A model generated the notes under the pieces. That model made no database searches and had not been told where the DNA came from. It saw only the letters and a program-made list of their open reading frames with translations. Both the position numbers and the translations under genes were made by a program. From positions 1 through 35,973 of the IMG/VR virus record IMGVR_UViG_3300014890_000016: 35,973 nucleotides of DNA; one strand, 5' to 3'. Position 1 is the stretch's first letter; every line of letters begins with the position of its first letter. This document shows positions 1-12,127 of the stretch, piece after piece. Origin of the DNA: a virus (Duplodnaviria; Heunggongvirae; Uroviricota; Caudoviricetes).

Positions 1-1005
1 TTAATCCCCCGTGGACACTGCGTGGACACTTACGCCACCTTTCAGCGGATTAAGGGCCACCGCATCCTGCAGGTAATCCGGTGCAAAATGTGCATACGCC
101 ATTGTTTGCTGAATGGTTGCGTGGCCAAGAATCTTCTGAAGCGCAATAATGTTTCCTCCGTTCATCACAAAATGGCTGGCGAACGTATGCCGCAGCACAT
201 GTGCAGCCTGACCTTTTGGCAAATCGGGCTTAACTCTTTTCAGCGCCAGGCAGAATTCCCGGTACTTCACCTCAAACAAGCTGCCTGTTTCTCTGGTTCT
301 GATCGCCTCACAAACCGCCTGCGAAATTGGCACCGTTCTCTTCCGGCCATTTTTGGTTTCAAGAAACGTCACTCGGTTATGAACTATCTGTTCACCACGG
401 AGCTTACAGGCTTCACTCCAGCGTGCCCCAGTGCTTAAACACAAAAGAGCAACACGCCAGTAATCGCCCTCCAATGTATCGAGCAATAACGCAACTTCCT
501 TCTGTGACAGGAACGCCATTTCTCGTGGAGATACATAAAGAATAGAAATTCCCCTTACCGGATGTTCTGCATCCCAAAGACCTATTTTTTTCAGCACGGT
601 AAACATTCCGGATAACCGATTCATGTACCTGTTAGCAGATGACGGTTTCAATCCATCAGCTATCTTTTGAGAACGCCACGCGATAATTTTCAGCTTATCA
701 AGATCCACAGCCTGCATATCAGCGCCAAGCTCATTGATTATGTTGCGCAGTTGTTTTCGGTCTTCTTCCGCCTTACGTCTGTGCTGGCCGTGATACATCC
801 ACCACAACTCAAGCAAATCATTTAGCGTTCGACGATCACGGTAGCCCTGTATATATTCCCGCTTTTCAGCGTTCGCCATGATGTAGCGTTCAGTGGCCAC
901 CGCTACCGATTTTTTGTCAAATACCTTACGCACGCGCTTTCCCTTGCGTCCGTTCGGCCTGATGTCCAGCAAATAACGACCATCTTCGAGCTTCTTAATC
1001 GACAT
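1..1005 (-). CDS. int: Tyrosine integrase, P2 Int-like
   Basis: Translation from the ATG at 1005 starts MSIKKLEDGRY (P2 Int starts MAIKKLDDGRY) and ends LNPLKGG..VHAVSTGD; GGAGGG Shine-Dalgarno upstream of that ATG. The track start at 1020 is a TTG upstream. Confidence 0.9.
   Translation of the reverse strand: MSIKKLEDGRYLLDIRPNGRKGKRVRKVFDKKSVAVATERYIMANAEKREYIQGYRDRRTLNDLLELWWMYHGQHRRKAEEDRKQLRNIINELGADMQAVDLDKLKIIAWRSQKIADGLKPSSANRYMNRLSGMFTVLKKIGLWDAEHPVRGISILYVSPREMAFLSQKEVALLLDTLEGDYWRVALLCLSTGARWSEACKLRGEQIVHNRVTFLETKNGRKRTVPISQAVCEAIRTRETGSLFEVKYREFCLALKRVKPDLPKGQAAHVLRHTFASHFVMNGGNIIALQKILGHATIQQTMAYAHFAPDYLQDAVALNPLKGGVSVHAVSTGD
8..35. repeat. Putative attL core, overlapping the 3' end of int
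   Basis: GTGGACACTGCGTGGACACTTACGC here resembles GTGGTCACTGTGTGGACATACGC at 34793..34815; the P2-type att core lies at the int 3' end (established). Confidence 0.4.
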
Positions 1006-1101
1006 AGCGAAGCCCTCCAATGAACCGCTTTACAATTTCTCCAGCTTCTTCCCAGCAACAGTCGGACCAGACAAATAACAGATCCAACCAGTTTTCTGGC
1101 C

Positions 1102-1416
1102 TCAGCGGAGTAATTTTTGGTTTGTTTCGGTTGAATCCTGATCGCCCTCCAAATTGCAGGAGCCATCATGAGAGAGAGGCGGGGCAATTTGTCCCGCAGC
1201 TTCGCCAGTTTGTCCGGTCATTAACCACAAAGTGTATTTATGAAACACAGGAATACGAATCACTCTCTCAACCAGCTCTGCTCTAGCAGGCTGATGCCCC
1301 GTTTCGTATTTCTGAATAGTGTTCAGTGGAATCCCTGTAATATCAGAGAACTGACGCCTGTTCAGCCCCTCAGCCTCCCTCATCCTCTGAAGCTTTTTTG
1401 AATAATCCATTGACAT
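1102..1416 (-). CDS. C: Immunity repressor, P2 C-like
   Basis: About 104 aa with HTH region LNRRQFSDITGIPLNTIQKYETG and the motif FHKYTLWLMTGQ...GQIAP matching P2 C (FTKYTLWFMTNQ...GQIAP). Start ambiguous between ATGs at 1410, 1416 and 1425; the 154-aa track ORF is an over-extension. Confidence 0.8.
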   Translation of the reverse strand: MSMDYSKKLQRMREAEGLNRRQFSDITGIPLNTIQKYETGHQPARAELVERVIRIPVFHKYTLWLMTGQTGEAAGQIAPPLSHDGSCNLEGDQDSTETNQKLLR

Positions 1417-1425
1417 GTTTCTCAT

Positions 1426-1537
1426 GTGAGAAATATACTCCTTTCTAAGTTGAGAAATGTTAAAACACATCGAATAGCCAAAATAAGCCCATATAAGCCA
1501 TTTTGAGCAATTCGAGCGAATTAAGGAGATTACCACA
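1426..1537. promoter_or_regulatory. C-cox divergent promoter/operator region with direct repeats
   Basis: Intergenic between divergent C and cox; direct repeats GTGAGAAAT and TTGAGAAAT about 26 bp apart, resembling the P2 arrangement of C operators as direct repeats. Confidence 0.45.
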
Positions 1538-1825
1538 ATGAGCGAATCAGAGCTTGAGGGGTTCATTCAGGTAGCACCATATCCACTTGAAGCGGTGCCA
1601 TATCAGCTATTCGCCAAGATGATTGGCCGCAAAGAATCAACCGTCAGAACCATGATTGACGCTGCAAAGCTACCAACGATTGACTTTGTAAAACCAGGTT
1701 CAGCAAAGACGCGAGCATCAGAAAACTGGGTATATCTGCCAGCATTTAACGCAGGTATGCGCAAAGCGTTTTTTGATCAGCCGAAAGAGCGCCGCGACGC
1801 ATGGTTGCTCTGGCTGGGTCTTTGA
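1538..1825 (+). CDS. cox: Cox-like excisionase / directionality factor
   Basis: 95 aa; PYQLFAKMIG..TVRTMID..KLPTIDF...ENWVYLPAFN...LLWLGL parallels P2 Cox (IPYQEFAKLIG...GEYWVYLPAWN...WLMWLGL); AAGGAG Shine-Dalgarno. Confidence 0.85.
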   Translation: MSESELEGFIQVAPYPLEAVPYQLFAKMIGRKESTVRTMIDAAKLPTIDFVKPGSAKTRASENWVYLPAFNAGMRKAFFDQPKERRDAWLLWLGL

Positions 1826-1846
1826 CGAGGATTTTTATGAGACAAC

Positions 1847-2178
1847 AACGTAATTCACGCTTCCGCAACGGCGCAGAACGCCACGCTAACCGTTTCGCTA
1901 CCAGTGCATCACGCAGCAGCTCTCGCTACAGCCTGAGCGAAACGCACGCAACACCAGACGGACACGCTGTAAAACAAACCGGCGAGCACACCTGGCTGAT
2001 TGAGAAAGCCGGAATCGTGGTCCACAAATGCCCGCGCAATCCGTTTACCGGAAACCGCATTTTTGCACTAAGCAGCGGCGACAATCAGTTCGGACAGGAT
2101 TTCACATTGTACGAAGCACTACGCACGGTTGATCGTCTGCTTCGCGGGCAAGGTTTTATTAAACAGGCTGACTTATAA
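1847..2178 (+). CDS. Hypothetical early protein with basic N-terminus
   Basis: ORF with GAGGA Shine-Dalgarno 7 nt upstream of ATG; in early operon after cox; no family recognised. Confidence 0.5.
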
Positions 2179-2188
2179 CAGGTGCTTT

Positions 2189-2476
2189 ATGACCAAAGAC
2201 TATGCACAAGGTGTATTTATCCGCTTTATTGATTTTCGCGGTGAACTGTTATTACGCGCATCCGCTATTGATGGAGTGGCTCCGGCGGGGAGAAACGGAA
2301 CCGCTGAAGCCACTTACGTTTATCTGAACGGCACTCGACTGCTTGTGGAACTTCCGTACCAGACCGTACGAGAAATCATTAGCGAAGCTGAAAAGGCACG
2401 TCAGGTTAATGGCGATAACCCCTATATCGAAATTATTTGTATGGATTCAGAAGCAGAAATCCAGAAGACAGATTAA
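2189..2476 (+). CDS. Hypothetical early protein
   Basis: 95-aa ORF in the co-directional early operon; no family recognised. Confidence 0.5.
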   Translation: MTKDYAQGVFIRFIDFRGELLLRASAIDGVAPAGRNGTAEATYVYLNGTRLLVELPYQTVREIISEAEKARQVNGDNPYIEIICMDSEAEIQKTD

Positions 2477-2486
2477 AGGGTGTGCG

Positions 2487-2729
2487 ATGGACAAAGAATA
2501 TAAAGCTCTCGTCAATAAAGCACTTGAGCGTTTTCATTTTCGCTTAAACACATCAGGGCTTCACGCCGAACACGCAGCCCATGATTCATTAGCAAGGGCA
2601 ATCAGAAGCCTTTATGACGTGGCTTTTTACGCTGACGATTTGGATGCAATTAACGAACTTTCCGAACTCGTCTGCGCTGCAGAATGCGGAGAACGCATTG
2701 AACCGTATAAACTGGGGAATATCGCATGA
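2487..2729 (+). CDS. Hypothetical early protein
   Basis: 80-aa ORF in the early operon; internal ATG chosen over the longer track ORF that overlaps the previous gene. Confidence 0.45.
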   Translation: MDKEYKALVNKALERFHFRLNTSGLHAEHAAHDSLARAIRSLYDVAFYADDLDAINELSELVCAAECGERIEPYKLGNIA

Positions 2730-2839
2730 GCATATTTATGTCATGGCTTGTTCTGATTATTTCGGTGGCCTGCGCAATCGGGATTATGCGAATTATTCAT
2801 TCAGTGAAAAAGATTGAGAATTTTTACTCTGACGAATAA
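2726..2839 (+). CDS. Small hydrophobic peptide (37 aa), putative membrane protein
   Basis: ATGA start/stop overlap with the upstream ORF; translation MSIFMSWLVLIISVACAIGIMRIIHSVKKIENFYSDE has one predicted TM helix. Below the ORF-track size cutoff. Confidence 0.3.
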   Translation: MSIFMSWLVLIISVACAIGIMRIIHSVKKIENFYSDE

Positions 2840-2932
2840 CAGCACAAATAAAACACCAGATTAAATAAGAAAACGTGAAAACCATCCGAATTAGCGGAGG
2901 CATTCACACACGTAAATAATGGAGATACAAAA

Positions 2933-3343
2933 ATGAACGCAAAAGAAAAAGGCATTGTAACTGCGCTAAAAAATATATCGAAGACCGCAAACAGAGCCAT
3001 TCAGGATGCAACAAATGCAGGAATGATTGGGCCTGCCACCACAGCCATGATGATAGCAAGAGTAACCGCCGAAGCAGCCGAAATTATCGAAAAACAGGAT
3101 GCTGAACTAACGGTTCTCAGAACACAACCAGTCACCGGACTGGATTTGTCTAACACCGGACGCCTTATTTACACAATTGGCTCGGAGCCACAGCAATACA
3201 CCATTATCGCCGGATTACAGGATAAATACCTGATCACTCCTCACCCCATAAGGGAATCAGAAATTCTGACAAATCTCCGCCTGATAGAGCGCTCTCAAGT
3301 CGCATTCATTGATGACGCACAGCGCACCGTATTTAACGCATAG
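2933..3343 (+). CDS. Hypothetical early protein
   Basis: 136-aa ORF with GGAG Shine-Dalgarno; no family recognised. Confidence 0.55.
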   Translation: MNAKEKGIVTALKNISKTANRAIQDATNAGMIGPATTAMMIARVTAEAAEIIEKQDAELTVLRTQPVTGLDLSNTGRLIYTIGSEPQQYTIIAGLQDKYLITPHPIRESEILTNLRLIERSQVAFIDDAQRTVFNA

Positions 3344-3367
3344 GGTTACTGGACAAAAGGGGGCGCA

Positions 3368-3571
3368 ATGGCAATTAAGCGTTTTTCCGTCATTCGTTTC
3401 ACATCCAGAGGGCGTGAATACGAAGTTGACGAACGGCTGATTAAAACGCTCGACCGTCACCGTTCGCAACCTGACGCGCATCACATTTATCTCACTGACG
3501 ACACTTACTTCTGCGCCACCAACGTGGTGCAGGTGAACCTTATCCGACAGGTACAGGAGTCACGCAGATGA
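3368..3571 (+). CDS. Hypothetical early protein
   Basis: 67-aa ORF with G-rich Shine-Dalgarno; stop overlaps next start. Confidence 0.5.
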   Translation: MAIKRFSVIRFTSRGREYEVDERLIKTLDRHRSQPDAHHIYLTDDTYFCATNVVQVNLIRQVQESRR

Positions 3572-3813
3572 CCATTCTGGACTACATCGCCGCCAATCCG
3601 GGTTGTAGCGGTGGAGAAATCGCCGCCGCGCTGAATACCCCAACCACAGCCATTAATGCGGAGTTACGCCGACTCTGGCGCGACGGCTTAGTCATCAGAG
3701 AAGAACGCAAAACAGGCGGTCGGTTCTCTTACCAGGTAAACCCGATGCCGTTCGGGTGTGGCAACCCACTTACTCACATGTTTAACCAGCTACTGAAGGA
3801 AGCCAGAGCATGA
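3568..3813 (+). CDS. Hypothetical protein, possible winged-helix DNA-binding
   Basis: ATGA coupling to flanking ORFs; segment SGGEIAAALNTPTTAINAELRRLWRDGLV resembles a wHTH recognition region (inference). Confidence 0.5.
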   Translation: MTILDYIAANPGCSGGEIAAALNTPTTAINAELRRLWRDGLVIREERKTGGRFSYQVNPMPFGCGNPLTHMFNQLLKEARA

Positions 3814-5850: not shown

Positions 5851-8673
5851 ATGACGGCAGAGTACATCAGGGACTGGCAACAACCGCGCCACGCAGTGGG
5901 GCGTGAAGGAACGGGGATCCCCGCTCCTGAATCCGCGCTTTCCTCCTGGCTGGGTGCCTACCGGGTAGAGAACGAGCGCCGCCAGGAAATGGCTGATGCG
6001 GCGTTCTCCGCCACGCCGCTGGGCAACCTGATTAATAAAAGCCTGGACGCACAGGAAAAACAGGACAAAACCATCACACTGGCAGGAGACGCCAGAAAAC
6101 AGGCACGCGGCGCGGTGGGTGAAGCCATGGTCTCGCTGCGCCTGCTGCCGTCCTATCTGCGCGATCCGCTTATTCGCCACCTCTCCTTCCTGCGCAAAAA
6201 ACAGGAAGCTGATCGCCGGAAAGGCAAAAAGAGCTGGCAGGCGGAACGCTATGCACGCGGAACCCTGCGCAAAATATTCGAACGTCTGGATCGCACTGAC
6301 GGACGCTGGCTGACACCGGGTTATCGCTCCCTTGCCGGACGCGAACGCCTGGACGATTTGCTTTACCTGCCGCAGCTCAACAAACACCAGATACAGACGC
6401 TGGCCACCATGACGGCGGCGATGTTCAGCAGCACCTTCGAAAAACTCTGCGATGGCTTTGGCGCGACCGATGGCGAACTGACCATGGATGTAACGCTGAA
6501 GGCGTATCAGATGCTGGCCCGCATGGCGTTACACCTGCACATCATGCCTCCACATTATGACGCACTGACAACAGATAAAGACCGGAGGAACGAACCGGAC
6601 ACGGAGCTGCTGCCGGGCGCAATCCTTCGCCTGACCTGTGCGGAATGGTGGAAACGCAAACTGTGGCTGTTACGTTGCGAGTGGAGAGAAGAACAACTCC
6701 GCGCCGCCTGTCTGGTTTCCAGAAAAACATCACCCTATCTGAGCCAGGACGCGTTAAGCGAGTTTCGCGCACAGCGCGAGAAAACACGCGATTTCCTGAA
6801 AAGTTTCATACTGGAAAATGAAGACGGGTTCACGATTGATCTCGAGACGGTGTATTACGCGGGAGTAAGTAACCCGGTTCACCGTAAGGCAGAAATGATG
6901 GCCACCATGAAGGGGCTGGAACTTCTGGCCGAAGCCCGTGGCGACAAAGCGGTGTTTCTTACTGTCACCTGCCCGTCAAAATACCACGCCACAACGGAGA
7001 ACGGTCATCCGAATCCCAAATGGAACGGGGCCACAATGCGCGACTCCAGCGATTACCTGGTTAACACGTTTTTTGCGGCGGTCCGCAAAAAACTGAACCG
7101 CGACGGCCTGCGCTGGTATGGCATCCGCACGGTGGAGCCTCATCATGACGGCACCGTGCACTGGCATATGATGGTCTTTGCACATCCGGAAGAAATCGAC
7201 AGCATCGTGGCCATCACCCGCGATATTGCCATTCAGGAAGACCGCCACGAGCTGGGCAATGATATTACTCCGCGCTTTAAGGCGGAGTATGTCGACGGCT
7301 CAAAAGGCACACCAACCAGCTATATCGCGACCTACATCGGAAAGAACCTGGACAGCCGCGCCGTGGATGGCATCGACCCGAAAACGGGCAAGCCACGCGT
7401 TGACCACGAAACCGGAAAATCAATGGCCGAGAGTGTGGAGCGCGCCATCGGCTGGGCGCGCCTTCACCGGGTCCGCCAGTTCCAGTTCTTTGGCATCCCC
7501 TCCCGTCAGGTGTGGCGTGAACTGCGCCGCCTTGCCAGCCAGATGGCACGCAACCCGGAAGGCCCGCAACGACTGAAGGATGACGCAATGGATGCAGTGC
7601 TCGCTGCCGCTGATGCCGGGTGTTTTGCCTCCTACATTGAAAAACAGGGCGGCGTACTTGTTCCACGCAAAGACTACCTGATTCGCACCGCCTACGACCT
7701 CGCAGATGAGCTGAACGATTACGGCGAACAGAGCGTACAGATTTACGGGATCTGGTCACCACTCATCGGGGAGTCTTCCCGTGTGTGCACACATCCGGAT
7801 AACTGGAAGCTGGTAAGACGTAAACCGGAAGCGGAAGACAGCGCCCGCGAAAATGGTTTTGACCTTCAGGGCGGCCCTGCCGCCCCTTGGACTCGTGGCA
7901 ATAACTGTCCCCGTGTACAGGAAACGGACAACAACGGGACAGAACAGCCGGAAGAACGGCCAGCACCGTGGCCGCAGCTCCCTGACGGCGTTGAAGTGAA
8001 CGAATGGATGCGCTCACTGAAACGGCACGAACGCCGGGCGCTGATGCGTTCGCTTCGTGACAAACAGGCAAAAAACAGCAGTGATGAAATGCAGAGCTGG
8101 ACACAGAGCCGCAAACAACAGCGGCCTTTGCCTGATAACCACGAGTTACTCGCTAAAGAATGGCGGGAGTCTGCTGAATCTCTCGGCCTGCATATCGGTG
8201 AACAGCAGATACTGCACCTGTTACGGGGCGGCAGTCTGTACGTTGACGGCAGCATCATTGCACCGCAGGGATTTGAAATTGTGCGCAAACCGGATACCCG
8301 CCCGGACAGCCGAATCGCGCAGCTCTGGCAGCGCCTGAGCCGTAATCACGGCGTAAGCAGCACGGAGATCCGTCATAACCCGGTCGCCAGCTATCTGGCA
8401 CAGCTGGGGGCATCAGACCCCGAAGCCGCCGCACGCCTGGCATCCACACTTCAGCAGGACCAGAACCCTATGAAAACACCCGTTACCGTGCTTTCTGACA
8501 TGCTGCGCGCCATCCGTGACGCAGAGCACGCACAGAGAATCAGTGAAACCACTGAACGCGCTCGCCGCAAAGCAGACCTGCTGCGGGGTGGCCTGACCAG
8601 TGGAAACAAAAAACAGACAGAAACGGGATTCACAAATCCCGTAAATGAGCAAAAAACGCGCCGCGATATATGA
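5851..8673 (+). CDS. A: Replication initiation endonuclease, P2 gpA-like (rolling-circle HUH nickase)
   Basis: 940 aa; HUH motif region TVHWHMMVF and tyrosine motif YIATYIGKN typical of the P2 A family; about 180 aa longer at the C-terminus than P2 A. Confidence 0.9.
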   Translation: MTAEYIRDWQQPRHAVGREGTGIPAPESALSSWLGAYRVENERRQEMADAAFSATPLGNLINKSLDAQEKQDKTITLAGDARKQARGAVGEAMVSLRLLPSYLRDPLIRHLSFLRKKQEADRRKGKKSWQAERYARGTLRKIFERLDRTDGRWLTPGYRSLAGRERLDDLLYLPQLNKHQIQTLATMTAAMFSSTFEKLCDGFGATDGELTMDVTLKAYQMLARMALHLHIMPPHYDALTTDKDRRNEPDTELLPGAILRLTCAEWWKRKLWLLRCEWREEQLRAACLVSRKTSPYLSQDALSEFRAQREKTRDFLKSFILENEDGFTIDLETVYYAGVSNPVHRKAEMMATMKGLELLAEARGDKAVFLTVTCPSKYHATTENGHPNPKWNGATMRDSSDYLVNTFFAAVRKKLNRDGLRWYGIRTVEPHHDGTVHWHMMVFAHPEEIDSIVAITRDIAIQEDRHELGNDITPRFKAEYVDGSKGTPTSYIATYIGKNLDSRAVDGIDPKTGKPRVDHETGKSMAESVERAIGWARLHRVRQFQFFGIPSRQVWRELRRLASQMARNPEGPQRLKDDAMDAVLAAADAGCFASYIEKQGGVLVPRKDYLIRTAYDLADELNDYGEQSVQIYGIWSPLIGESSRVCTHPDNWKLVRRKPEAEDSARENGFDLQGGPAAPWTRGNNCPRVQETDNNGTEQPEERPAPWPQLPDGVEVNEWMRSLKRHERRALMRSLRDKQAKNSSDEMQSWTQSRKQQRPLPDNHELLAKEWRESAESLGLHIGEQQILHLLRGGSLYVDGSIIAPQGFEIVRKPDTRPDSRIAQLWQRLSRNHGVSSTEIRHNPVASYLAQLGASDPEAAARLASTLQQDQNPMKTPVTVLSDMLRAIRDAEHAQRISETTERARRKADLLRGGLTSGNKKQTETGFTNPVNEQKTRRDI

Positions 8674-8715
8674 AGCGCGCATAAAACAGGCAAAAACGGG
8701 ATTTCAGAATCCCGT
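8623..8715. repeat. Two copies of a 20-bp palindrome ACGGGATT-N4-AATCCCGT
   Basis: Copy 1 at 8623..8642 lies inside the last codons of gpA; copy 2 at 8696..8715 is just upstream of the parM-like gene. Confidence 0.4.
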
Positions 8716-8749
8716 AAACGATTAATTAATCAACATAAGGAAAAGCGAC

Positions 8750-9709
8750 ATGAAAATTTGTATCGACGACGGCTCCACCAACATCAAGCTGGCATGGACT
8801 AAGAACGGCGAACGCCGCAACGCCATCAGCCCGAACAGCTTCAAGTCGGAATGGTCTGCGCCGTTCGGTGGCACGCAGCCCGCGAACTACATGCTTGATG
8901 GCGTGCGCTATGGTTTTGATCCGGTCAGCGATCGCTTTGTCCAGACGACCGACACGCAATACCAGTACAGCGATGTGAATGTCATTGCCATTCATCACGC
9001 GCTGGTCAAATCAGGCATCACGCCACAGGAGGTGGATGTGGTTGTCACCCTGCCACTGAGCGAGTATTTCGACACAAACGCACAGCCGGACATGGCCAAC
9101 ATCAACCGCAAAAAAGCGAACGTTATGCGCCCGGTGGAGTACCAGAACGGCGAAGCATTCACTATCCGTAACGTACGGGTTATGCCTGAATCCATTCCGG
9201 CTGGCTTTAAGGCACTGGCTGACATGAGTCCGTTTGAATCCCTGCTGATTGTGGATTTGGGCGGAACCACGCTGGATGTGGCAAAGGTTCAGGGGCAACT
9301 GGCAGGTATCAGCCAGGTGTTTTGCGATCCACACGTAGGCGTTTCCCTGATGGCCGATGCAGTACTCTCGGTGATGGCCGCTAACGGTATGCGTACCAGT
9401 CACCACATCGCCAATACCATTATCGAACATCGCCATGATGAAGCCTGGCTGCGCCAGCACATCCACAATGACACGCATTACGCCAGCCTGATGGCGGTTA
9501 TTCGTGAAAAGGAAGAAACACTGAAACAACGCGTGATCCGCGCGCTGGCGGTTTTTTCGGGTTACGGGCGGGTGATGGTTGTCGGTGGAGGGGCGGAGAT
9601 TGTAGCACCCGCTATCCGCGAAGCCTGCGGAGTTAATGCGACTTTCATCGCGGACGGGGTGCCACAGTTTGCTCTGGTTAATGGGCTGTACGCAATGGAC
9701 AAGGAGTAA
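8750..9709 (+). CDS. parM: Actin-like ATPase of the ParM/StbA family
   Basis: 319 aa; MKICIDDGSTNIKLAW, ISPNSFKSEW, QYSDVNVIAIHHAL, VMPESIPAG, IVDLGGTTLD, SGYGRVMVVGGGAE and LVNGLY align along the whole length with plasmid R1 ParM as recalled. Confidence 0.85.
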   Translation: MKICIDDGSTNIKLAWTKNGERRNAISPNSFKSEWSAPFGGTQPANYMLDGVRYGFDPVSDRFVQTTDTQYQYSDVNVIAIHHALVKSGITPQEVDVVVTLPLSEYFDTNAQPDMANINRKKANVMRPVEYQNGEAFTIRNVRVMPESIPAGFKALADMSPFESLLIVDLGGTTLDVAKVQGQLAGISQVFCDPHVGVSLMADAVLSVMAANGMRTSHHIANTIIEHRHDEAWLRQHIHNDTHYASLMAVIREKEETLKQRVIRALAVFSGYGRVMVVGGGAEIVAPAIREACGVNATFIADGVPQFALVNGLYAMDKE

Positions 9710-9713
9710 ACCA

Positions 9714-10028
9714 ATGACGACACCAACCAGACGGATAAGTTTCTATCTGAAGCCTGCGGCCGTCAAGAGTGAACAGGAGGCGTGCAATTACCTCGACAGC
9801 CTGCCAGCCTCCGAACGCAGCCGCGCGCAACGCGCGGCTTTTCTGGCCGGACTGGCTCTTATAAAACGCACCCCCGCGTTGGCGTATTCGCTGGCAGAAT
9901 GGTCAGAAGACGAAATACGGATGCCATCGCTACCAGCACAGCCTGAAAAACCGGCGCAACCAGCAGCAGACAGCGCCCCCCATATGCAGCAGGTGAAAAA
10001 GAATATTCAGGCGTTTTTCCCGAAGTGA
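9714..10028 (+). CDS. parR: ParR-like DNA-binding adaptor
   Basis: 104 aa directly after parM with AAGGAG Shine-Dalgarno; N-terminus RRISFYLKP...LDSLPASERSRAQRAAFLAGLAL parallels R1 ParR (RRTIAFKLNP...LDSIPQGERSRLNRAALTAGLAL). Confidence 0.7.
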   Translation: MTTPTRRISFYLKPAAVKSEQEACNYLDSLPASERSRAQRAAFLAGLALIKRTPALAYSLAEWSEDEIRMPSLPAQPEKPAQPAADSAPHMQQVKKNIQAFFPK

Positions 10029-10042
10029 AAACAGGAGTAACT

Positions 10043-10330
10043 ATGCCCACCATTACCAAAGAATGGTTACAACGTAAAATCACAGAGTTTAAATCGTGGC
10101 GCGAAGACATCCCGTTCGGTCTTGATGAAGACGATCACAATATGTTAATCGCACTGGAAATCGCACTTGCATCACTGGAAGCAGAGCCAGTGGCATGGAT
10201 GCACGCAAATAATCCTATTGGAATACCGGCGATAACAAGAAGTAAAGATGTTGCAGACAGCTGGCGCTCTAAGGGATGGAATGTATTGCCTCTTTATTCA
10301 CTGACCCGCTCCATCAATTTATGCCATTAA
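10043..10330 (+). CDS. Hypothetical protein
   Basis: 95-aa ORF with CAGGAG Shine-Dalgarno; no family recognised. Confidence 0.5.
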   Translation: MPTITKEWLQRKITEFKSWREDIPFGLDEDDHNMLIALEIALASLEAEPVAWMHANNPIGIPAITRSKDVADSWRSKGWNVLPLYSLTRSINLCH

Positions 10331-10341
10331 TGGAAGTAATC

Positions 10342-10701
10342 ATGATGAAAGATAATTCCGGAAGCCAGCGTGCATCAGTTGCAGTTATGGTAATGATTAA
10401 ATTTGTGAAACAGTACACCGGAAAGCCAATCTCACTCCGGCAATTAAGCAAAGAAACCGTTTCACTGTCATATCTGGAGCAAATATTCAGATATTTACGG
10501 GAAAGTAGCTTGGTAAAAGCCACACGCGGCCCGGGTGGTGGATATATCCCAACAAAAGAAAATTACAGTGTTGGTGATATTGTCCGGGCAATGAAATGTT
10601 CCGGATTATATACACAGCACGTTATTCTGGCTGCACTGGATAATATTTCTTTAACCAGCCTGCAAGAAGACACAAATTATCAGTTGTCTGCCATTGAATA
10701 A
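10342..10701 (+). CDS. Rrf2-family winged-helix transcriptional regulator, short form
   Basis: ISLRQLSKETVSLSYLEQIFRYLRESSLVKATRGPGGGY matches the Rrf2/IscR signature; no Cys cluster, so probably not Fe-S binding. Start could also be the ATG at 10330. Confidence 0.65.
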   Translation: MMKDNSGSQRASVAVMVMIKFVKQYTGKPISLRQLSKETVSLSYLEQIFRYLRESSLVKATRGPGGGYIPTKENYSVGDIVRAMKCSGLYTQHVILAALDNISLTSLQEDTNYQLSAIE

Positions 10702-10704
10702 GAA

Positions 10705-10749
10705 AACCCGGAACGGGTGCGCAAATTCTTTGTGCGCCCGTTCCGGGTT
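10705..10749. terminator. Hairpin between convergent operons, terminator mainly for the leftward operon
   Basis: 13-bp perfect arms AACCCGGAACGGG / CCCGTTCCGGGTT; a T-rich tract follows only on the minus strand. Confidence 0.5.
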
Positions 10750-10769
10750 GGACAAGCGAAGCGCGTCAG

Positions 10770-11027
10770 CTATCCAGCCTGCAACAACTCCAGCGCCATC
10801 TGTTTTTCTTCCGGGCGCATCCGTTCAATCAACAGCTTTAACACACCGTGATCCAGCCCGCTGGGCACCAGTGTGTGCGAGTAGGTCAGATTCATCACCC
10901 AGGTATGTCCGCACTCGAGACGGGTGCAACGGTAATACACATCAGCAAACTGATCGGTTTTCCAGGCTGTTTTCTCAATCACTGCATGTGCACCGCAGCA
11001 ATGACATCGCGCTTTCTGTCTGCGCAT
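10770..11027 (-). CDS. ogr: Ogr/Delta-family zinc-finger late transcription activator
   Basis: 85 aa from ATG at 11027 with GGAGG Shine-Dalgarno; C-x2-C, 22 residues, C-x4-C spacing identical to P2 Ogr. Confidence 0.65.
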   Translation of the reverse strand: MRRQKARCHCCGAHAVIEKTAWKTDQFADVYYRCTRLECGHTWVMNLTYSHTLVPSGLDHGVLKLLIERMRPEEKQMALELLQAG

Positions 11028-11092
11028 TTTCCACCTCCCGGAACAGCGTTTTACTGCCGCCGATTTTACCCGCTCTTTCCCCATACCGCACA

Positions 11093-12127
11093 TCACTCCA
11101 TGGGTTCATCAAAATCAAGAATAAATTTCACCTCCCCCAGTCGCCTGATATCCGGGTCACTGTTGATCCCCTCCATAATCAGACGGCGCATCGGAATAAC
11201 CTCATCCCTGTAATATGCCTCGCGGGATTTAAGTGGGTCGCCAAGCCCGGCCGTATTTGCGGGAATGATGCCTGCAAGTCCGGGTGGAAAACGGTGCGCC
11301 ACGAGCTGATCCTGAGCACTGATGGTTTTTATATTCAGGAACTCATCTTTTGTACCTGAATCCCCGATAGGGATCACCTTAACGCCTTCTTTGTCTCCGC
11401 CAGGTATATTGATAAACATGGATTTAAAATTGCCCGCCCCTTTTGAGGCCTCTATCTTTTTACGGAATTCCGCCTCGAGCTCGGGATCCATGTCCGGGTC
11501 AGTGGAATACAGGATATAACCAAGATGTGCGCCGTTCTTGTAATACTTGCGGCGAAAGCGGGTGGCATCCACATTCAGCATGGCAGATTCCATCCCGTGA
11601 ATATAATCCGGGACACCGTAAACCTGCTGTTGCGGGTCATAAATGGCCACAAACACCACTTCACCTGACGGATACACGAGATCTTCCAGTGCCGCCTGCA
11701 CAATCACCGTGCCCCCCTCGTTGTTGCGCCGCAGGTACAGAGAAGGCAACGTATGCAGGCGCACCACCCGACCAAAGCCATTACGTACTTTAAGCAACCC
11801 CATATCCCCGAATATCAGCAGATTGGTCACTGCTGCCGCCATGGCGGCGTGTGTCATACCACCACCACCCCGAAAACCCTGCATGATCATATTGACGCGC
11901 GCACGCAATACCGCGCCGTGATACGGCGCGATATTGGACAACATGGCAAGATCCATGCGCTCAATGGGCGGCGTGTACCAGCCGTTATAGCCATCCCAGA
12001 GCGAGCCGTAATAACAGCCCCATGCAGCAACCGGTTCAGGGTCACCAAATTCAATAAACGTCATTTTGCTGGCTGTTTTTTTTGCCACGCCATCGTGTAG
12101 CACGGGGGATTTTTTCTTTTTACTCAT
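11093..12127 (-). CDS. Q: Portal protein, P2 gpQ-like
   Basis: 344 aa; position and orientation as in P2, downstream of and overlapping the terminase gene. Confidence 0.85.
   Translation of the reverse strand: MSKKKKSPVLHDGVAKKTASKMTFIEFGDPEPVAAWGCYYGSLWDGYNGWYTPPIERMDLAMLSNIAPYHGAVLRARVNMIMQGFRGGGGMTHAAMAAAVTNLLIFGDMGLLKVRNGFGRVVRLHTLPSLYLRRNNEGGTVIVQAALEDLVYPSGEVVFVAIYDPQQQVYGVPDYIHGMESAMLNVDATRFRRKYYKNGAHLGYILYSTDPDMDPELEAEFRKKIEASKGAGNFKSMFINIPGGDKEGVKVIPIGDSGTKDEFLNIKTISAQDQLVAHRFPPGLAGIIPANTAGLGDPLKSREAYYRDEVIPMRRLIMEGINSDPDIRRLGEVKFILDFDEPME

What the first reader, a model, noticed from the sequence alone, without database searches (positions are those of the whole stretch)
8674..10770. 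ParM/ParR-type actin module and a short Rrf2 regulator in the gpA-to-Q cargo slot
Between the replication gene and the packaging genes, where P2 carries tin and old and where P2-like phages are known to swap anti-phage cargo, this prophage has four co-directional genes: a full-length ParM-like actin ATPase, a ParR-like adaptor, a 95-aa unknown and an Rrf2-family regulator lacking the Fe-S cysteines. An integrating prophage has no obvious need for a plasmid partition system. Possible roles are episome segregation after induction, a filament-based exclusion or defence function, or an undescribed regulatory module. This is my strongest candidate for the undescribed system.
Basis: partly seen in the sequence, partly recalled or inferred. 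Interest (0 to 1): 0.8.

Follow-up and report, generated by a model that had tools for sequence, protein, structure and literature searches.

The report
P88-like prophage ParMR partition cassette
The four genes are real, but the actin-like ParM/ParR pair is a fixed and already published backbone feature of the common P88-like family of E. coli P2-type prophages, and only the two small genes after it (an unknown 95-aa protein and an IscR-like regulator that has lost its iron-sulfur site) are swappable cargo.

Summary
Observation confirmed: parM (8750-9709), parR (9714-10028), a 95-aa ORF (10043-10330) and a 119-aa Rrf2/IscR-like ORF (10342-10701) lie co-directionally between gpA and ogr/portal.

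Interpretation only partly right. ParM (E 1e-92 to R1 ParM) and ParR are not cargo. They are present at 98-99% aa identity in all 80 related viral contigs. They occur in 1279-1303 of 5426 complete E. coli genomes, tightly linked to this gpA type, with dN/dS 0.06. The variable slot starts inside or after parR. It shows at least 30 architectures in 54 loci, including IetAS, AbiL-like and other known or candidate defence families.

The module is already in the literature. Rousset 2022 notes a "putative plasmid partitioning system" in about a quarter of P2-like phages and tabulates this exact gene arrangement. Pfeifer 2021 flags P88 as a possible phage-plasmid.

Best reading: a type II ParMRC cassette, with a candidate parC of two 20-bp palindromes at 8623-8715. 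It is probably read through from the early operon and acts on the circular episomal phage DNA after infection or induction, not on a stable plasmid prophage (1441 of 1443 copies are chromosomal).

The p95 + cluster-less IscR-like pair is uncharacterised cargo with no defence-database hit. Low novelty, modest interest.

The parts
5851..8673 (+). gpA replication endonuclease (940 aa), the upstream backbone gene to which the ParMR cassette is linked
   Evidence: Pfam Phage_GPA 2e-131. This gpA type is found at >=80% coverage in 1320 complete E. coli genomes, against 1279 for parM.
8607..8721 (.). Candidate parC. Two 42-nt direct repeats lie 73 bp apart (8607-8648 and 8680-8721). Each holds a perfect 20-bp palindrome ACGGGATT-N4-AATCCCGT (8623-8642 and 8696-8715).
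   Evidence: Repeats found. All four ACGGGATT 8-mers in the 36-kb window are these half-sites (1 of 100 shuffles reach 4). The pair is retained in Salmonella relatives where the upstream ORF is different. Both hairpins also score as minus-strand terminator-like. The assignment as centromere is inferred, not shown.
8750..9709 (+). parM, actin-fold partition ATPase (319 aa)
   Evidence: Pfam StbA_N 1.3e-81 + ParM_C 2.7e-68. R1 ParM 1mwk E 1.2e-92 over the full length with nucleotide-binding motifs intact. 98-99% aa identity in 80 IMG/VR loci. dN/dS 0.057.
9714..10028 (+). parR, ribbon-helix-helix-type adaptor (104 aa). It is also the left edge of the variable region.
   Evidence: Pfam Plasmid_stab_B 4.2e-25. 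pB171 ParR 2jd3 E 0.003. 50 distinct alleles were seen: residues 1-17 are nearly invariant, the 67-90 linker is hypervariable, and the C-terminal NI-x-x-x-FP(E/K) motif is conserved. That motif is shared with an IncFIA plasmid ParR.
10043..10330 (+). 95-aa mosaic prophage protein (Eaa/DUF551-associated N-module plus a small C-terminal domain). Cargo, function unknown.
10342..10701 (+). 119-aa IscR-like Rrf2 winged-helix protein lacking the Fe-S ligand loop. Cargo.
   Evidence: Pfam Rrf2 2.2e-13. Best PDB sequence and fold match is E. coli apo-IscR 4hf0 (TM 0.74; model pLDDT 82.5). An approximately 26-residue deletion spans the Cys ligands, while the SLSYLEQ recognition helix and RGPGGGY wing are invariant. 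Close relatives occur only in E. coli/Salmonella P88-like prophages, plus one 51% homologue in a lambdoid context.
10705..10749 (.). 21-bp-arm inverted repeat (bidirectional terminator-like hairpin) that closes the + strand gene string and separates it from ogr
   Evidence: I1, 90% complementary, 3-nt loop. A sub-stem (10706-10718) scores as minus-strand terminator-like. The same sequence follows the Rrf2-like gene in Salmonella relatives.
10770..11096 (-). Ogr/Delta-like zinc-finger late activator. It travels with the window's portal type, not with the cargo.
   Evidence: Pfam Ogr_Delta 1.3e-12. It co-occurs with the 'type 2' portal in loci that lack p95/Rrf2 (L050, L053, L070, L082).

Best explanation
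The interval holds two separate things.

(1) 8607-10028 is a complete type II (ParMRC, R1/pB171-type) DNA-partition cassette:
- a candidate centromere of two 20-bp palindromes;
- the actin-like ATPase ParM;
- the adaptor ParR.

This cassette is a fixed backbone module of the P88-like (Xuanwuvirus) lineage of P2-type temperate phages. It is welded to the 3' end of the replication gene A.

Proposed mechanism (inferred): the cassette has no recognisable promoter of its own and is read through from the early lytic promoter together with gpA. It is therefore made when the phage genome is a free circle, after infection or after excision. ParR dimers bind the palindromes through the invariant N-terminal strand. 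The conserved ParR C-terminal tail captures growing ParM filaments. The filaments push sister circles apart. This spreads or segregates the monomeric circles produced by gpA replication, so that both daughter cells, or distinct cell regions, keep phage DNA until integration or packaging. The closest functional precedent is the AlpAC system of the CGP3 prophage.

(2) 10043-10701 is the real occupant of the gpA-Q hotspot in this phage. It is a two-gene cargo: an Eaa-type mosaic 95-aa protein and a cluster-less IscR-like winged-helix protein. The cargo ends at a strong hairpin.

The second protein most likely acts as a constitutive DNA-binding regulator with IscR-like (apo-form, type-2-site) specificity on host targets.

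Shown: gene identities, backbone versus cargo status, purifying selection, and chromosomal residence.

Inferred: parC assignment, timing of expression, the episome-positioning role, and the targets of the IscR-like protein.
For: Identity of the cassette:
- ParM E 1e-92 to R1 ParM with ATPase motifs intact.
- ParR Pfam PF10784 4e-25 and a pB171 ParR hit.
- The ParR N-terminus (residues 1-17) and the C-terminal NIxxxFP(E/K) motif are conserved across 50 alleles. The C-terminal motif is shared with a plasmid ParR.

Backbone status:
- ParM is 98-99% identical in 80 of 80 IMG/VR loci and in all 14 P88-like phage records.
- parM is in 1279 genomes and this gpA type in 1320 genomes, out of 5426.
- dN/dS is 0.057 for parM against 0.135 for gpA.
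- Plasmid ParMs are <=52% identical with no intermediates, so this is an old, fixed acquisition.

Variable slot starts after parR:
- megablast similarity ends at window positions of about 9768-9911.
- The parR-to-portal slot is 1-4.2 kb, with >=30 architectures in 54 loci.
- In other loci the slot holds PADLOC families: IetA/IetS, AbiL-like, RmrA-like, PDC-M04A and PDC-M11A.

Candidate parC:
- Two perfect palindromes, unique in the window, sit directly upstream of parM.
- They are retained with the cassette in Salmonella despite a different upstream ORF.

Early-operon reading:
- The C-repressor/cox switch and an 11/12 sigma-70 promoter lie at 1410-1439. All genes from cox to the Rrf2-like gene are on the + strand.
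- No promoter better than 7/12 lies upstream of parM, p95 or the Rrf2-like gene.
- The gene string ends at the 10705-10749 hairpin.

Not a plasmid prophage as a rule:
- 1441 of 1443 parM places are chromosomal.
- An integrase is present.

Precedent: the prophage-encoded actin AlpC and adaptor AlpA are early-induced, bind the excised circle, and are needed for efficient replication (PMC4446434).

Cargo:
- The Rrf2-like model matches apo-IscR.
- The equivalents of IscR Ser40/Glu43/Gln44, the residues that read type-2 sites (PMC5411485), are kept and the wing Arg is invariant. The Cys loop is deleted.
Against: - No experiment bears on this cassette.
- The palindromes number only two, whereas R1 has ten iterons by my recollection. 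Both also score as minus-strand intrinsic-terminator-like hairpins. Their arms are not clearly more conserved than the already highly conserved flanks. One relative (L017) has lost one copy.
- Absence of a consensus promoter is weak evidence. ParR-autoregulated or non-consensus promoters could allow expression in the lysogen.
- One 34,461-bp circular 'plasmid' record is a complete P88-like genome. An episomal state therefore does occur, or is at least assembled.
- AlpC is a different actin-like family and its host is Gram-positive, so the analogy is functional only.
- No IscR type-1 or type-2 site occurs in the window. Host targets were not examined.
- The N-terminal helix of the IscR-like protein differs from that of IscR.
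Confidence: 0.55

Rival explanations
1. Phage-plasmid lifestyle. ParMR exists to stabilise a plasmid form of the prophage, so P88-like phages alternate between integrated and stably replicating episomal lysogeny. This is the suggestion made by Rousset 2022 and Pfeifer 2021.
For: - The partition cassette is intact and under strong purifying selection.
- Both papers propose it.
- pZ1323PEC0009-2 is a 34,461-bp circular record holding a whole P88-like genome.
- The only other phage in the collection with this ParM type is D6, labelled 'StbA type plasmid stability protein' in its record (48% identical). By my recollection D6 is a P1-like phage-plasmid.
Against: - 1441 of 1443 copies in complete E. 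coli genomes are chromosomal.
- Only 1-2 of 72,556 plasmid records look like free P88-like episomes. The other hits are prophages inside very large replicons.
- Integrase, cox and the C repressor are all present.
- A circular contig can simply be excised, replicating phage DNA.
- By analogy with P2 (established knowledge), replication depends on gpA expressed from the repressible early promoter. A repressed episome would then have partition but no replication.
Confidence: 0.2
2. The 95-aa + Rrf2-like pair is an undescribed anti-phage or superinfection-exclusion module, expressed from the prophage like P2 tin/old.
For: - It occupies the same slot that holds IetAS, AbiL-like, RmrA-like, PDC-M04A and PDC-M11A in sister phages. 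That slot is the published P2 defence hotspot.
- The pair is sporadically distributed: 37 complete E. coli genomes.
- The pair is co-inherited in E. coli and Salmonella.
Against: - No PADLOC hit for either protein.
- No recognisable promoter of its own.
- Neither protein has an enzymatic or effector domain. p95 belongs to a ubiquitous Eaa/DUF551-type mosaic family.
- The two genes occur apart elsewhere. The p95 C-module is in L032 without the Rrf2-like gene. The Rrf2-like homologue P0003 sits in a lambdoid nin-like region.
- Many hotspot genes are not defence genes.
Confidence: 0.15
3. ParM/ParR itself is a filament-based exclusion or defence device. This is one of the first reader's options.
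For: It lies next to a defence hotspot. Partition proteins can in principle cause incompatibility against elements that share a centromere.
Against: - It is invariant across the lineage while true cargo turns over.
- No PADLOC hit.
- It has all the hallmarks of an ordinary partition cassette, including the conserved ParR tail.
- It is tightly linked to the replication gene.
Confidence: 0.04
4. The twin palindromes are not a centromere. They are minus-strand transcription terminators (or an RNA structure) that insulate gpA from antisense transcription out of the cargo slot. On this reading parC lies elsewhere or is absent.
For: - Both score as intrinsic-terminator-like on the minus strand, with an 8-bp stem followed by a T-rich tail.
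- Several sister phages carry minus-strand cargo genes.
- The region folds strongly as RNA, z = -4.7.
Against: - They sit about 2 kb from the cargo, beyond parR and parM.
- They are duplicated as 42-nt units in the position where R1-type parC lies.
- They travel with parMR in Salmonella.
- No other repeat family is present near the cassette.
- The two roles are not mutually exclusive.
Confidence: 0.2

Closest known systems
Type II ParMRC partition systems of plasmids R1 and pB171 (ParM/StbA, ParR/StbB, parC)
   Same: - Full-length ParM homology (E 1e-92, 46-52% identity to plasmid ParMs) with intact nucleotide-binding motifs.
- parR lies directly downstream, with a Plasmid_stab_B N-domain and a conserved C-terminal tail.
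- Repeats lie directly upstream of parM.
   Different: - It resides in an integrating P2-type phage, fused to the end of the gpA early operon.
- The candidate centromere is two 20-bp GC-rich palindromes rather than an array of about 10 AT-rich iterons (R1 iteron number and composition recalled from memory).
- No recognisable internal promoter.
- The ParM clade is separated from all plasmid ParMs by a gap (<=52% versus >=95%).
AlpAC of Corynebacterium glutamicum prophage CGP3 (Donovan et al. 2015, PMC4446434)
   Same: An integrated prophage encodes an actin-like filament former plus a DNA-binding adaptor whose sites lie upstream of the operon. In CGP3 both are early-induced, connect the excised circular phage DNA to filaments, and are required for efficient replication. 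This is the role proposed here.
   Different: AlpC/AlpA are a different actin-like family in an actinobacterial host. Homology to the window's proteins was not tested. In the window the gene order is ParM then adaptor, and the proteins are bona fide R1-type.
P2 gpA-gpQ (tin/old) accessory hotspot (Rousset et al. 2022, PMC9122126)
   Same: The chromosomal interval is the same. The paper already reports a putative plasmid partitioning system in about a quarter of P2-like phages. [quoted passage not shown]
   Different: The paper treats everything between gpA and gpQ as hotspot content. Here ParMR is shown to be constant within its lineage, and the variable part begins inside or after parR.
Phage-plasmids with partition systems (P1/D6, N15; Pfeifer et al. 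2021, PMC7969092)
   Same: A phage genome carries a plasmid-type partition cassette. P88 itself was picked up in that screen, and D6 carries a 48%-identical ParM.
   Different: P88-like elements have integrase/cox/C and are chromosomal in 1441 of 1443 cases.
IscR (Rrf2 family) of E. coli
   Same: Best sequence and fold match. The recognition helix SLSYLEQ (Ser40/Glu43/Gln44 equivalents), the wing RGPGGGY and the end of the dimerisation helix are conserved.
   Different: - About 26 residues including all three Cys ligands are deleted, leaving 119 aa.
- The N-terminal helix is divergent.
- It is encoded in phage cargo.
- No IscR-type operator is present in the phage.

Membership tests
Type II (ParMRC) partition system | Actin-fold ParM ATPase with intact nucleotide-binding motifs | tested here: met
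   Pfam StbA_N 1.3e-81 + ParM C-domain 2.7e-68. Full-length alignment to R1 ParM 1mwk, E 1.2e-92, with phosphate-1, phosphate-2, adenosine and catalytic Glu motifs conserved.
Type II (ParMRC) partition system | ParR adaptor gene immediately downstream of parM, with an N-terminal DNA-binding (RHH-type) domain | tested here: met
   Starts 4 nt after the parM stop. Pfam Plasmid_stab_B 4.2e-25. pB171 ParR (2jd3) E 0.003 over residues 7-64.
Type II (ParMRC) partition system | ParR C-terminal tail that binds ParM | tested here: inconclusive
   The C-terminal motif NI-x-x-x-FP(E/K) is conserved in all 50 ParR alleles despite a hypervariable linker. It resembles the end of an IncFIA plasmid ParR, NNIKNLFPDDE. 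Binding itself was not tested.
Type II (ParMRC) partition system | parC centromere: multiple ParR-binding repeats upstream of parM, overlapping an autoregulated promoter | tested here: inconclusive
   Two 42-nt repeats, each with a perfect 20-bp palindrome, unique in the window and retained in Salmonella relatives. Against: only two copies, no promoter better than 7/12, terminator-like on the minus strand, and arms no more conserved than flanks.
Type II (ParMRC) partition system | Forms filaments and stabilises an otherwise unstable replicon | not testable with these tools
   Needs a plasmid-stabilisation assay and imaging.
P2 gpA-gpQ hotspot cargo / defence system | Lies between gpA and gpQ | tested here: met
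   gpA 5851-8673, portal 11093-12127. Hotspot defined in PMC9122126.
P2 gpA-gpQ hotspot cargo / defence system | Varies between otherwise closely related phages | tested here: not met
   For ParM/ParR: present in 80 of 80 loci at 98-99% (ParM), and in 1279 genomes against 1320 for gpA. For the 95-aa + Rrf2-like pair the feature IS met: 8 of 54 complete slots and 37 complete E. coli genomes.
P2 gpA-gpQ hotspot cargo / defence system | Similarity to a known or candidate defence protein family | tested here: not met
   PADLOC gave 0 hits for all four proteins at E<=1. Cargo of sister loci hits IetA/IetS, AbiL, RmrA, PDC-M04A and PDC-M11A.
Rrf2 / IscR family regulator | N-terminal winged helix-turn-helix of Rrf2 type | tested here: met
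   Pfam Rrf2 50.9 bits (cut-off 30), residues 8-88. AF2 model matches apo-IscR 4hf0 with TM 0.74.
Rrf2 / IscR family regulator | Three Cys (+His) ligands for the Fe-S cluster | tested here: not met
   Alignment A1 shows a gap of about 26 residues across the ligand region. Only one Cys remains.
Rrf2 / IscR family regulator | Long dimerisation helix | tested here: inconclusive
   Only the C-terminal part (ILAALDNISLTSLQE) aligns with the IscR helix. The monomer model shows short helices at 93-100 and 104-109. No dimer prediction was possible.
Phage-plasmid | Lysogeny as an extrachromosomal replicon | tested here: not met
   1441 of 1443 parM places in complete E. coli genomes are chromosomal. 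One 34,461-bp circular record exists. Integrase is present.

The most novel reading that the evidence does not exclude
The 119-aa cargo protein is a phage-borne, cluster-less mimic of host IscR. It keeps IscR's DNA-reading residues but cannot sense Fe-S status. It would therefore behave as a permanently 'apo' IscR, or poison IscR dimers. When the early operon fires, it would lock the host Fe-S/respiratory type-2 regulon (for example suf on, hya off) into one state to the phage's benefit. I know of no described case of a phage hijacking the IscR regulon in this way.
Probability: 0.12. Interest if true: 0.6.

Novelty: already known. Interest (0 to 1): 0.3.

Why it matters
The ParMR cassette sits in roughly a quarter of complete E. 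coli genomes and is under strong purifying selection. It has been remarked on twice in print, yet nobody has tested what it does. Its role in a phage that integrates and replicates by a gpA nickase remains a real, easily testable gap.

This analysis narrows the question in four ways:
- ParMR is backbone, not cargo.
- It is almost never found on a plasmid.
- It probably fires with the replication gene.
- It has a concrete candidate centromere.

If ParMR positions or segregates episomal phage circles, that would extend the AlpAC precedent to Gram-negative P2-type phages. The finding itself, as submitted, is not a new system.

Tried and rejected
- PADLOC on all four proteins: no hits.
- Rfam on 8300-11300: nothing near threshold.
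- IscR type-1 and type-2 operator searches in the window. No type-1 match. One type-2 match with a single mismatch, against 4.9 expected by chance.
- Sigma-70 promoter scans, strict and relaxed, upstream of parM, p95 and the Rrf2-like gene: nothing better than 7/12. One 9/12 site lies inside p95 and is within chance expectation.
- Per-column conservation of the palindrome arms against flanks across 59 unique upstream sequences: no discrimination, because the whole region is conserved.
- Comparison with the parC region of the closest plasmid ParMR (IncFIA, 52% ParM): different AT-rich short repeats, so no transferable centromere motif.
- Whether p95 and the Rrf2-like gene form an obligate pair: rejected as unproven, because each module occurs without the other elsewhere.
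- ParMR as a decaying relic: rejected on dN/dS 0.057 and intact ORFs in about 1,280 genomes.


Full report
**What is there**

Between the stop of the replication gene A (5851-8673) and the Ogr/portal genes on the opposite strand lie four tightly packed + strand ORFs:
- ParM, 8750-9709, 319 aa.
- ParR, 9714-10028, 104 aa. The start is three bases later than I first took it.
- A 95-aa ORF, 10043-10330.
- A 119-aa ORF, 10342-10701.

The string ends at a 21-bp-arm hairpin at 10705-10749.

ParM matches Pfam StbA_N (1.3e-81) and the ParM C-terminal domain (2.7e-68). It aligns end to end with R1 ParM (PDB 1mwk, E 1.2e-92), with the phosphate-binding, adenosine and catalytic motifs intact. ParR matches Plasmid_stab_B (4.2e-25) and, weakly, pB171 ParR. 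The 95-aa protein has no Pfam, NCBIfam or PADLOC hit. The 119-aa protein is an Rrf2-family winged helix (Pfam 2.2e-13, above the curated cut-off).

**Whose genome this is**

The window is a P88-like (genus Xuanwuvirus, Peduoviridae) prophage of E. coli.
- Phage P88, 520873, P884B11, vB_EcoM-569R5 and Citrobacter phage phiSM match gpA-parM-parR at 94-98% DNA identity.
- In strain STEC316 the same element sits next to dmsABC with an integrase at its end.
- The window has the P2-type switch: integrase 1-1020 (-), an HTH repressor at 1102-1566 (-), a near-consensus promoter at 1410-1439, then cox. From cox to the Rrf2-like gene there is an unbroken run of + strand genes.

**ParMR is backbone, not cargo**

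- Eighty related viral contigs fetched with ParM all carry ParM at 98-99% amino-acid identity, next to gpA.
- In 5,426 complete E. coli genomes, parM is present at >=80% coverage in 1,279 genomes and this gpA type in 1,320.
- Pairwise dN/dS is 0.057 for parM, lower than for gpA at 0.135.
- Plasmid ParMs are at most 52% identical and nothing bridges the gap. This points to an old, fixed acquisition.
- DNA similarity between relatives stops inside parR, at window positions of about 9768, 9866 or 9911.
- ParR exists as 50 distinct sequences in several allele classes. Residues 1-17 are nearly invariant, the linker (67-90) is hypervariable, and the C-terminal motif NI-x-x-x-FP(E/K) is conserved. 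An IncFIA plasmid ParR shares that motif. The pattern fits a conserved DNA-reading strand and a conserved ParM-binding tail flanking a recombination-prone middle.
- The stretch from parR to the portal is 1.0-4.2 kb and shows at least 30 different gene architectures in 54 complete loci.
- In sister phages that stretch holds IetA/IetS, AbiL-like, RmrA-like + PIN, PDC-M04A and PDC-M11A proteins.

So the hotspot is real, but it begins after, or within, parR. In this window its occupant is the 95-aa + Rrf2-like pair. That pair is found in 8 of 54 loci and in 37 complete E. coli genomes. It is also found in Salmonella relatives.

**It is already described**

- Rousset et al. 2022 analysed exactly this gpA-gpQ interval. 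[quoted passage not shown] RefSeq gives the same accession to the 95-aa protein in STEC316.
- Pfeifer et al. 2021 picked up P88 in a phage-plasmid screen. [quoted passage not shown]
- PGAP names the gene ParM in all the listed genomes.
- No functional test was found in the searchable literature.

**How it most likely works**

A candidate centromere lies directly upstream of parM. Two 42-nt direct repeats sit 73 bp apart, each with a perfect palindrome ACGGGATT-N4-AATCCCGT (8623-8642 and 8696-8715).
- All four ACGGGATT 8-mers in the 36-kb window are these half-sites.
- The pair is kept in Salmonella relatives even though the ORF upstream is different there.
- The assignment is not proven. There are only two sites. 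Both also look like minus-strand intrinsic terminators. Their arms are not more conserved than the conserved flanks. One relative has lost a copy by a precise 73-bp deletion.

No sigma-70-like promoter better than 7/12 precedes parM, p95 or the Rrf2-like gene. The simplest reading is read-through from the early promoter with gpA. By analogy with P2, that promoter is shut in lysogens.

Copies are almost always chromosomal: 1441 of 1443. Only one convincing free 34-kb circle was found among 72,556 plasmid records. Together this argues against stable plasmid lysogeny as the normal state. It favours action on the free circular genome after infection or induction. In this model ParR on the palindromes seeds ParM filaments that push sister circles apart. 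The AlpAC system of prophage CGP3 is the closest functional precedent. From general knowledge of P2, not tested here: gpA replication yields monomeric circles, which are also the packaging substrate. A plasmid-type spindle therefore has a sensible substrate. I put about 0.55 on this overall picture. The identities and backbone status are near certain. The timing and role are inferred.

**The cargo pair**

The Rrf2-like protein:
- It has close relatives only in these prophages, plus one 51% homologue in a lambdoid replication/nin-like region. Beyond that come bacterial IscR proteins at about 35-45% over the winged helix.
- The AF2 model (pLDDT 82.5) matches apo-IscR best (TM 0.74).
- The alignment shows a deletion of about 26 residues that removes the Cys ligands. 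The recognition helix SLSYLEQ and the wing RGPGGGY are invariant.
- Ser40, Glu43 and Gln44 of IscR are the residues that read type-2 sites, and apo-IscR binds only such sites (PMC5411485).
- No IscR-type site occurs in the phage. If the specificity is IscR-like, the targets are host genes. This is a hypothesis only.

The 95-aa protein:
- It belongs to the very common Eaa/DUF551-associated mosaic family of enterobacterial prophage proteins.
- Its model is a helical hairpin plus a small alpha/beta unit without informative structural neighbours.
- Its N-terminal module recurs in the cargo of 18 of 54 slots, attached to different C-termini.
- The two genes occur without each other elsewhere, so they are not shown to be one system.
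- A defence role is possible by location but has no direct support.

**Verdict**

The ParM/ParR module is an ordinary, intact type II partition cassette that is a known hallmark of P88-like phages, not a new or swappable system. What remains open is its biological role in an integrating phage, and what the small IscR-like cargo protein does. Both are cheap to test.

Noticed in passing
window 11093-12127 (portal) and the late region beyond; compare L001 6649-7695: The window's portal is only about 30% identical to P88's portal, while gpA and ParM are 97-99% identical. Two unrelated structural-gene modules are therefore joined to the same early/replication module, with the junction in or after parR. 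The ogr gene next to the portal travels with the window's portal type (L050, L053, L070, L082 have ogr and this portal without the p95/Rrf2 pair).
   Followed up: partly
window 9714-10028; loci L001-L084: ParR occurs as 50 distinct sequences in several allele classes (53-95% identity to the window) while ParM stays at 98-99%. The invariant parts are residues 1-17 and the last ~10 residues. The linker is hypervariable. Whether this is neutral mosaicism at the hotspot edge or selection (for example on incompatibility) is unknown.
   Followed up: partly
L017, upstream of parM (about 5900-6000): One relative carries a single palindrome. The sequence is what a recombination between the two 42-nt repeats would leave (precise loss of one 73-bp unit), and this also alters the gpA C-terminus.
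   Followed up: no
L085 (NZ_CP148288.1, 1-34461): pZ1323PEC0009-2, deposited as a circular non-mobilizable E. coli plasmid, is a complete P88-like phage genome with integrase, cox, repressor, gpA, ParM and ParR. It is either a genuine episomal state or an assembled excised/replicating form.
   Followed up: partly
L087-L090 (Salmonella enterica), 551-3709: In Salmonella relatives gpA is 872 aa and is followed by a separate 142-aa ORF in place of the E. coli gpA C-terminal extension. An extra 209-aa minus-strand gene sits between the Rrf2-like gene's hairpin and ogr.
   Followed up: no
slots of L001, L027, L029, L055, L060, L061, L082 (first gene after parR): Several sister phages carry, as first cargo gene, a ~110-125-aa protein ending in a C4 zinc-ribbon motif (CSFCNK...ICNECV). 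By eye this resembles the ClpX N-terminal zinc-binding domain, and a note on P88 gp19 reads 'ClpX'. It may be a ClpX-ZBD mimic. Not examined.
   Followed up: no
slots of L008, L075, L015/L016, L084, L068: The slot downstream of parR in sister phages carries IetA/IetS, an AbiL-like ATPase with a TOPRIM-like partner, an RmrA-like ImmA/IrrE protein with a PIN protein, PDC-M04A (by eye DUF3800-like) and PDC-M11A with what looks like an ASCH protein. This is a useful set of P88-lineage defence cargos.
   Followed up: partly
window 10043-10100 and slots of 18 of 54 loci: The N-terminal module of the 95-aa protein (M-x-TITKEWLQ..., ...LASLEAEPVAW) recurs in slot cargo with different C-terminal domains. 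In L049 only the first ~14 residues are shared. This suggests that recombination within this module creates chimeric cargo genes.
   Followed up: partly
window 8600-8720: AAAC/A-tracts recur at 8604, 8611, 8621, 8654, 8684, 8694 and 8716, with spacings of 7, 10, 33, 30, 10 and 22 nt. Most spacings are near multiples of a helical turn, hinting at intrinsically bent DNA around the palindromes. Read by eye from the sequence, not tested statistically.
   Followed up: no
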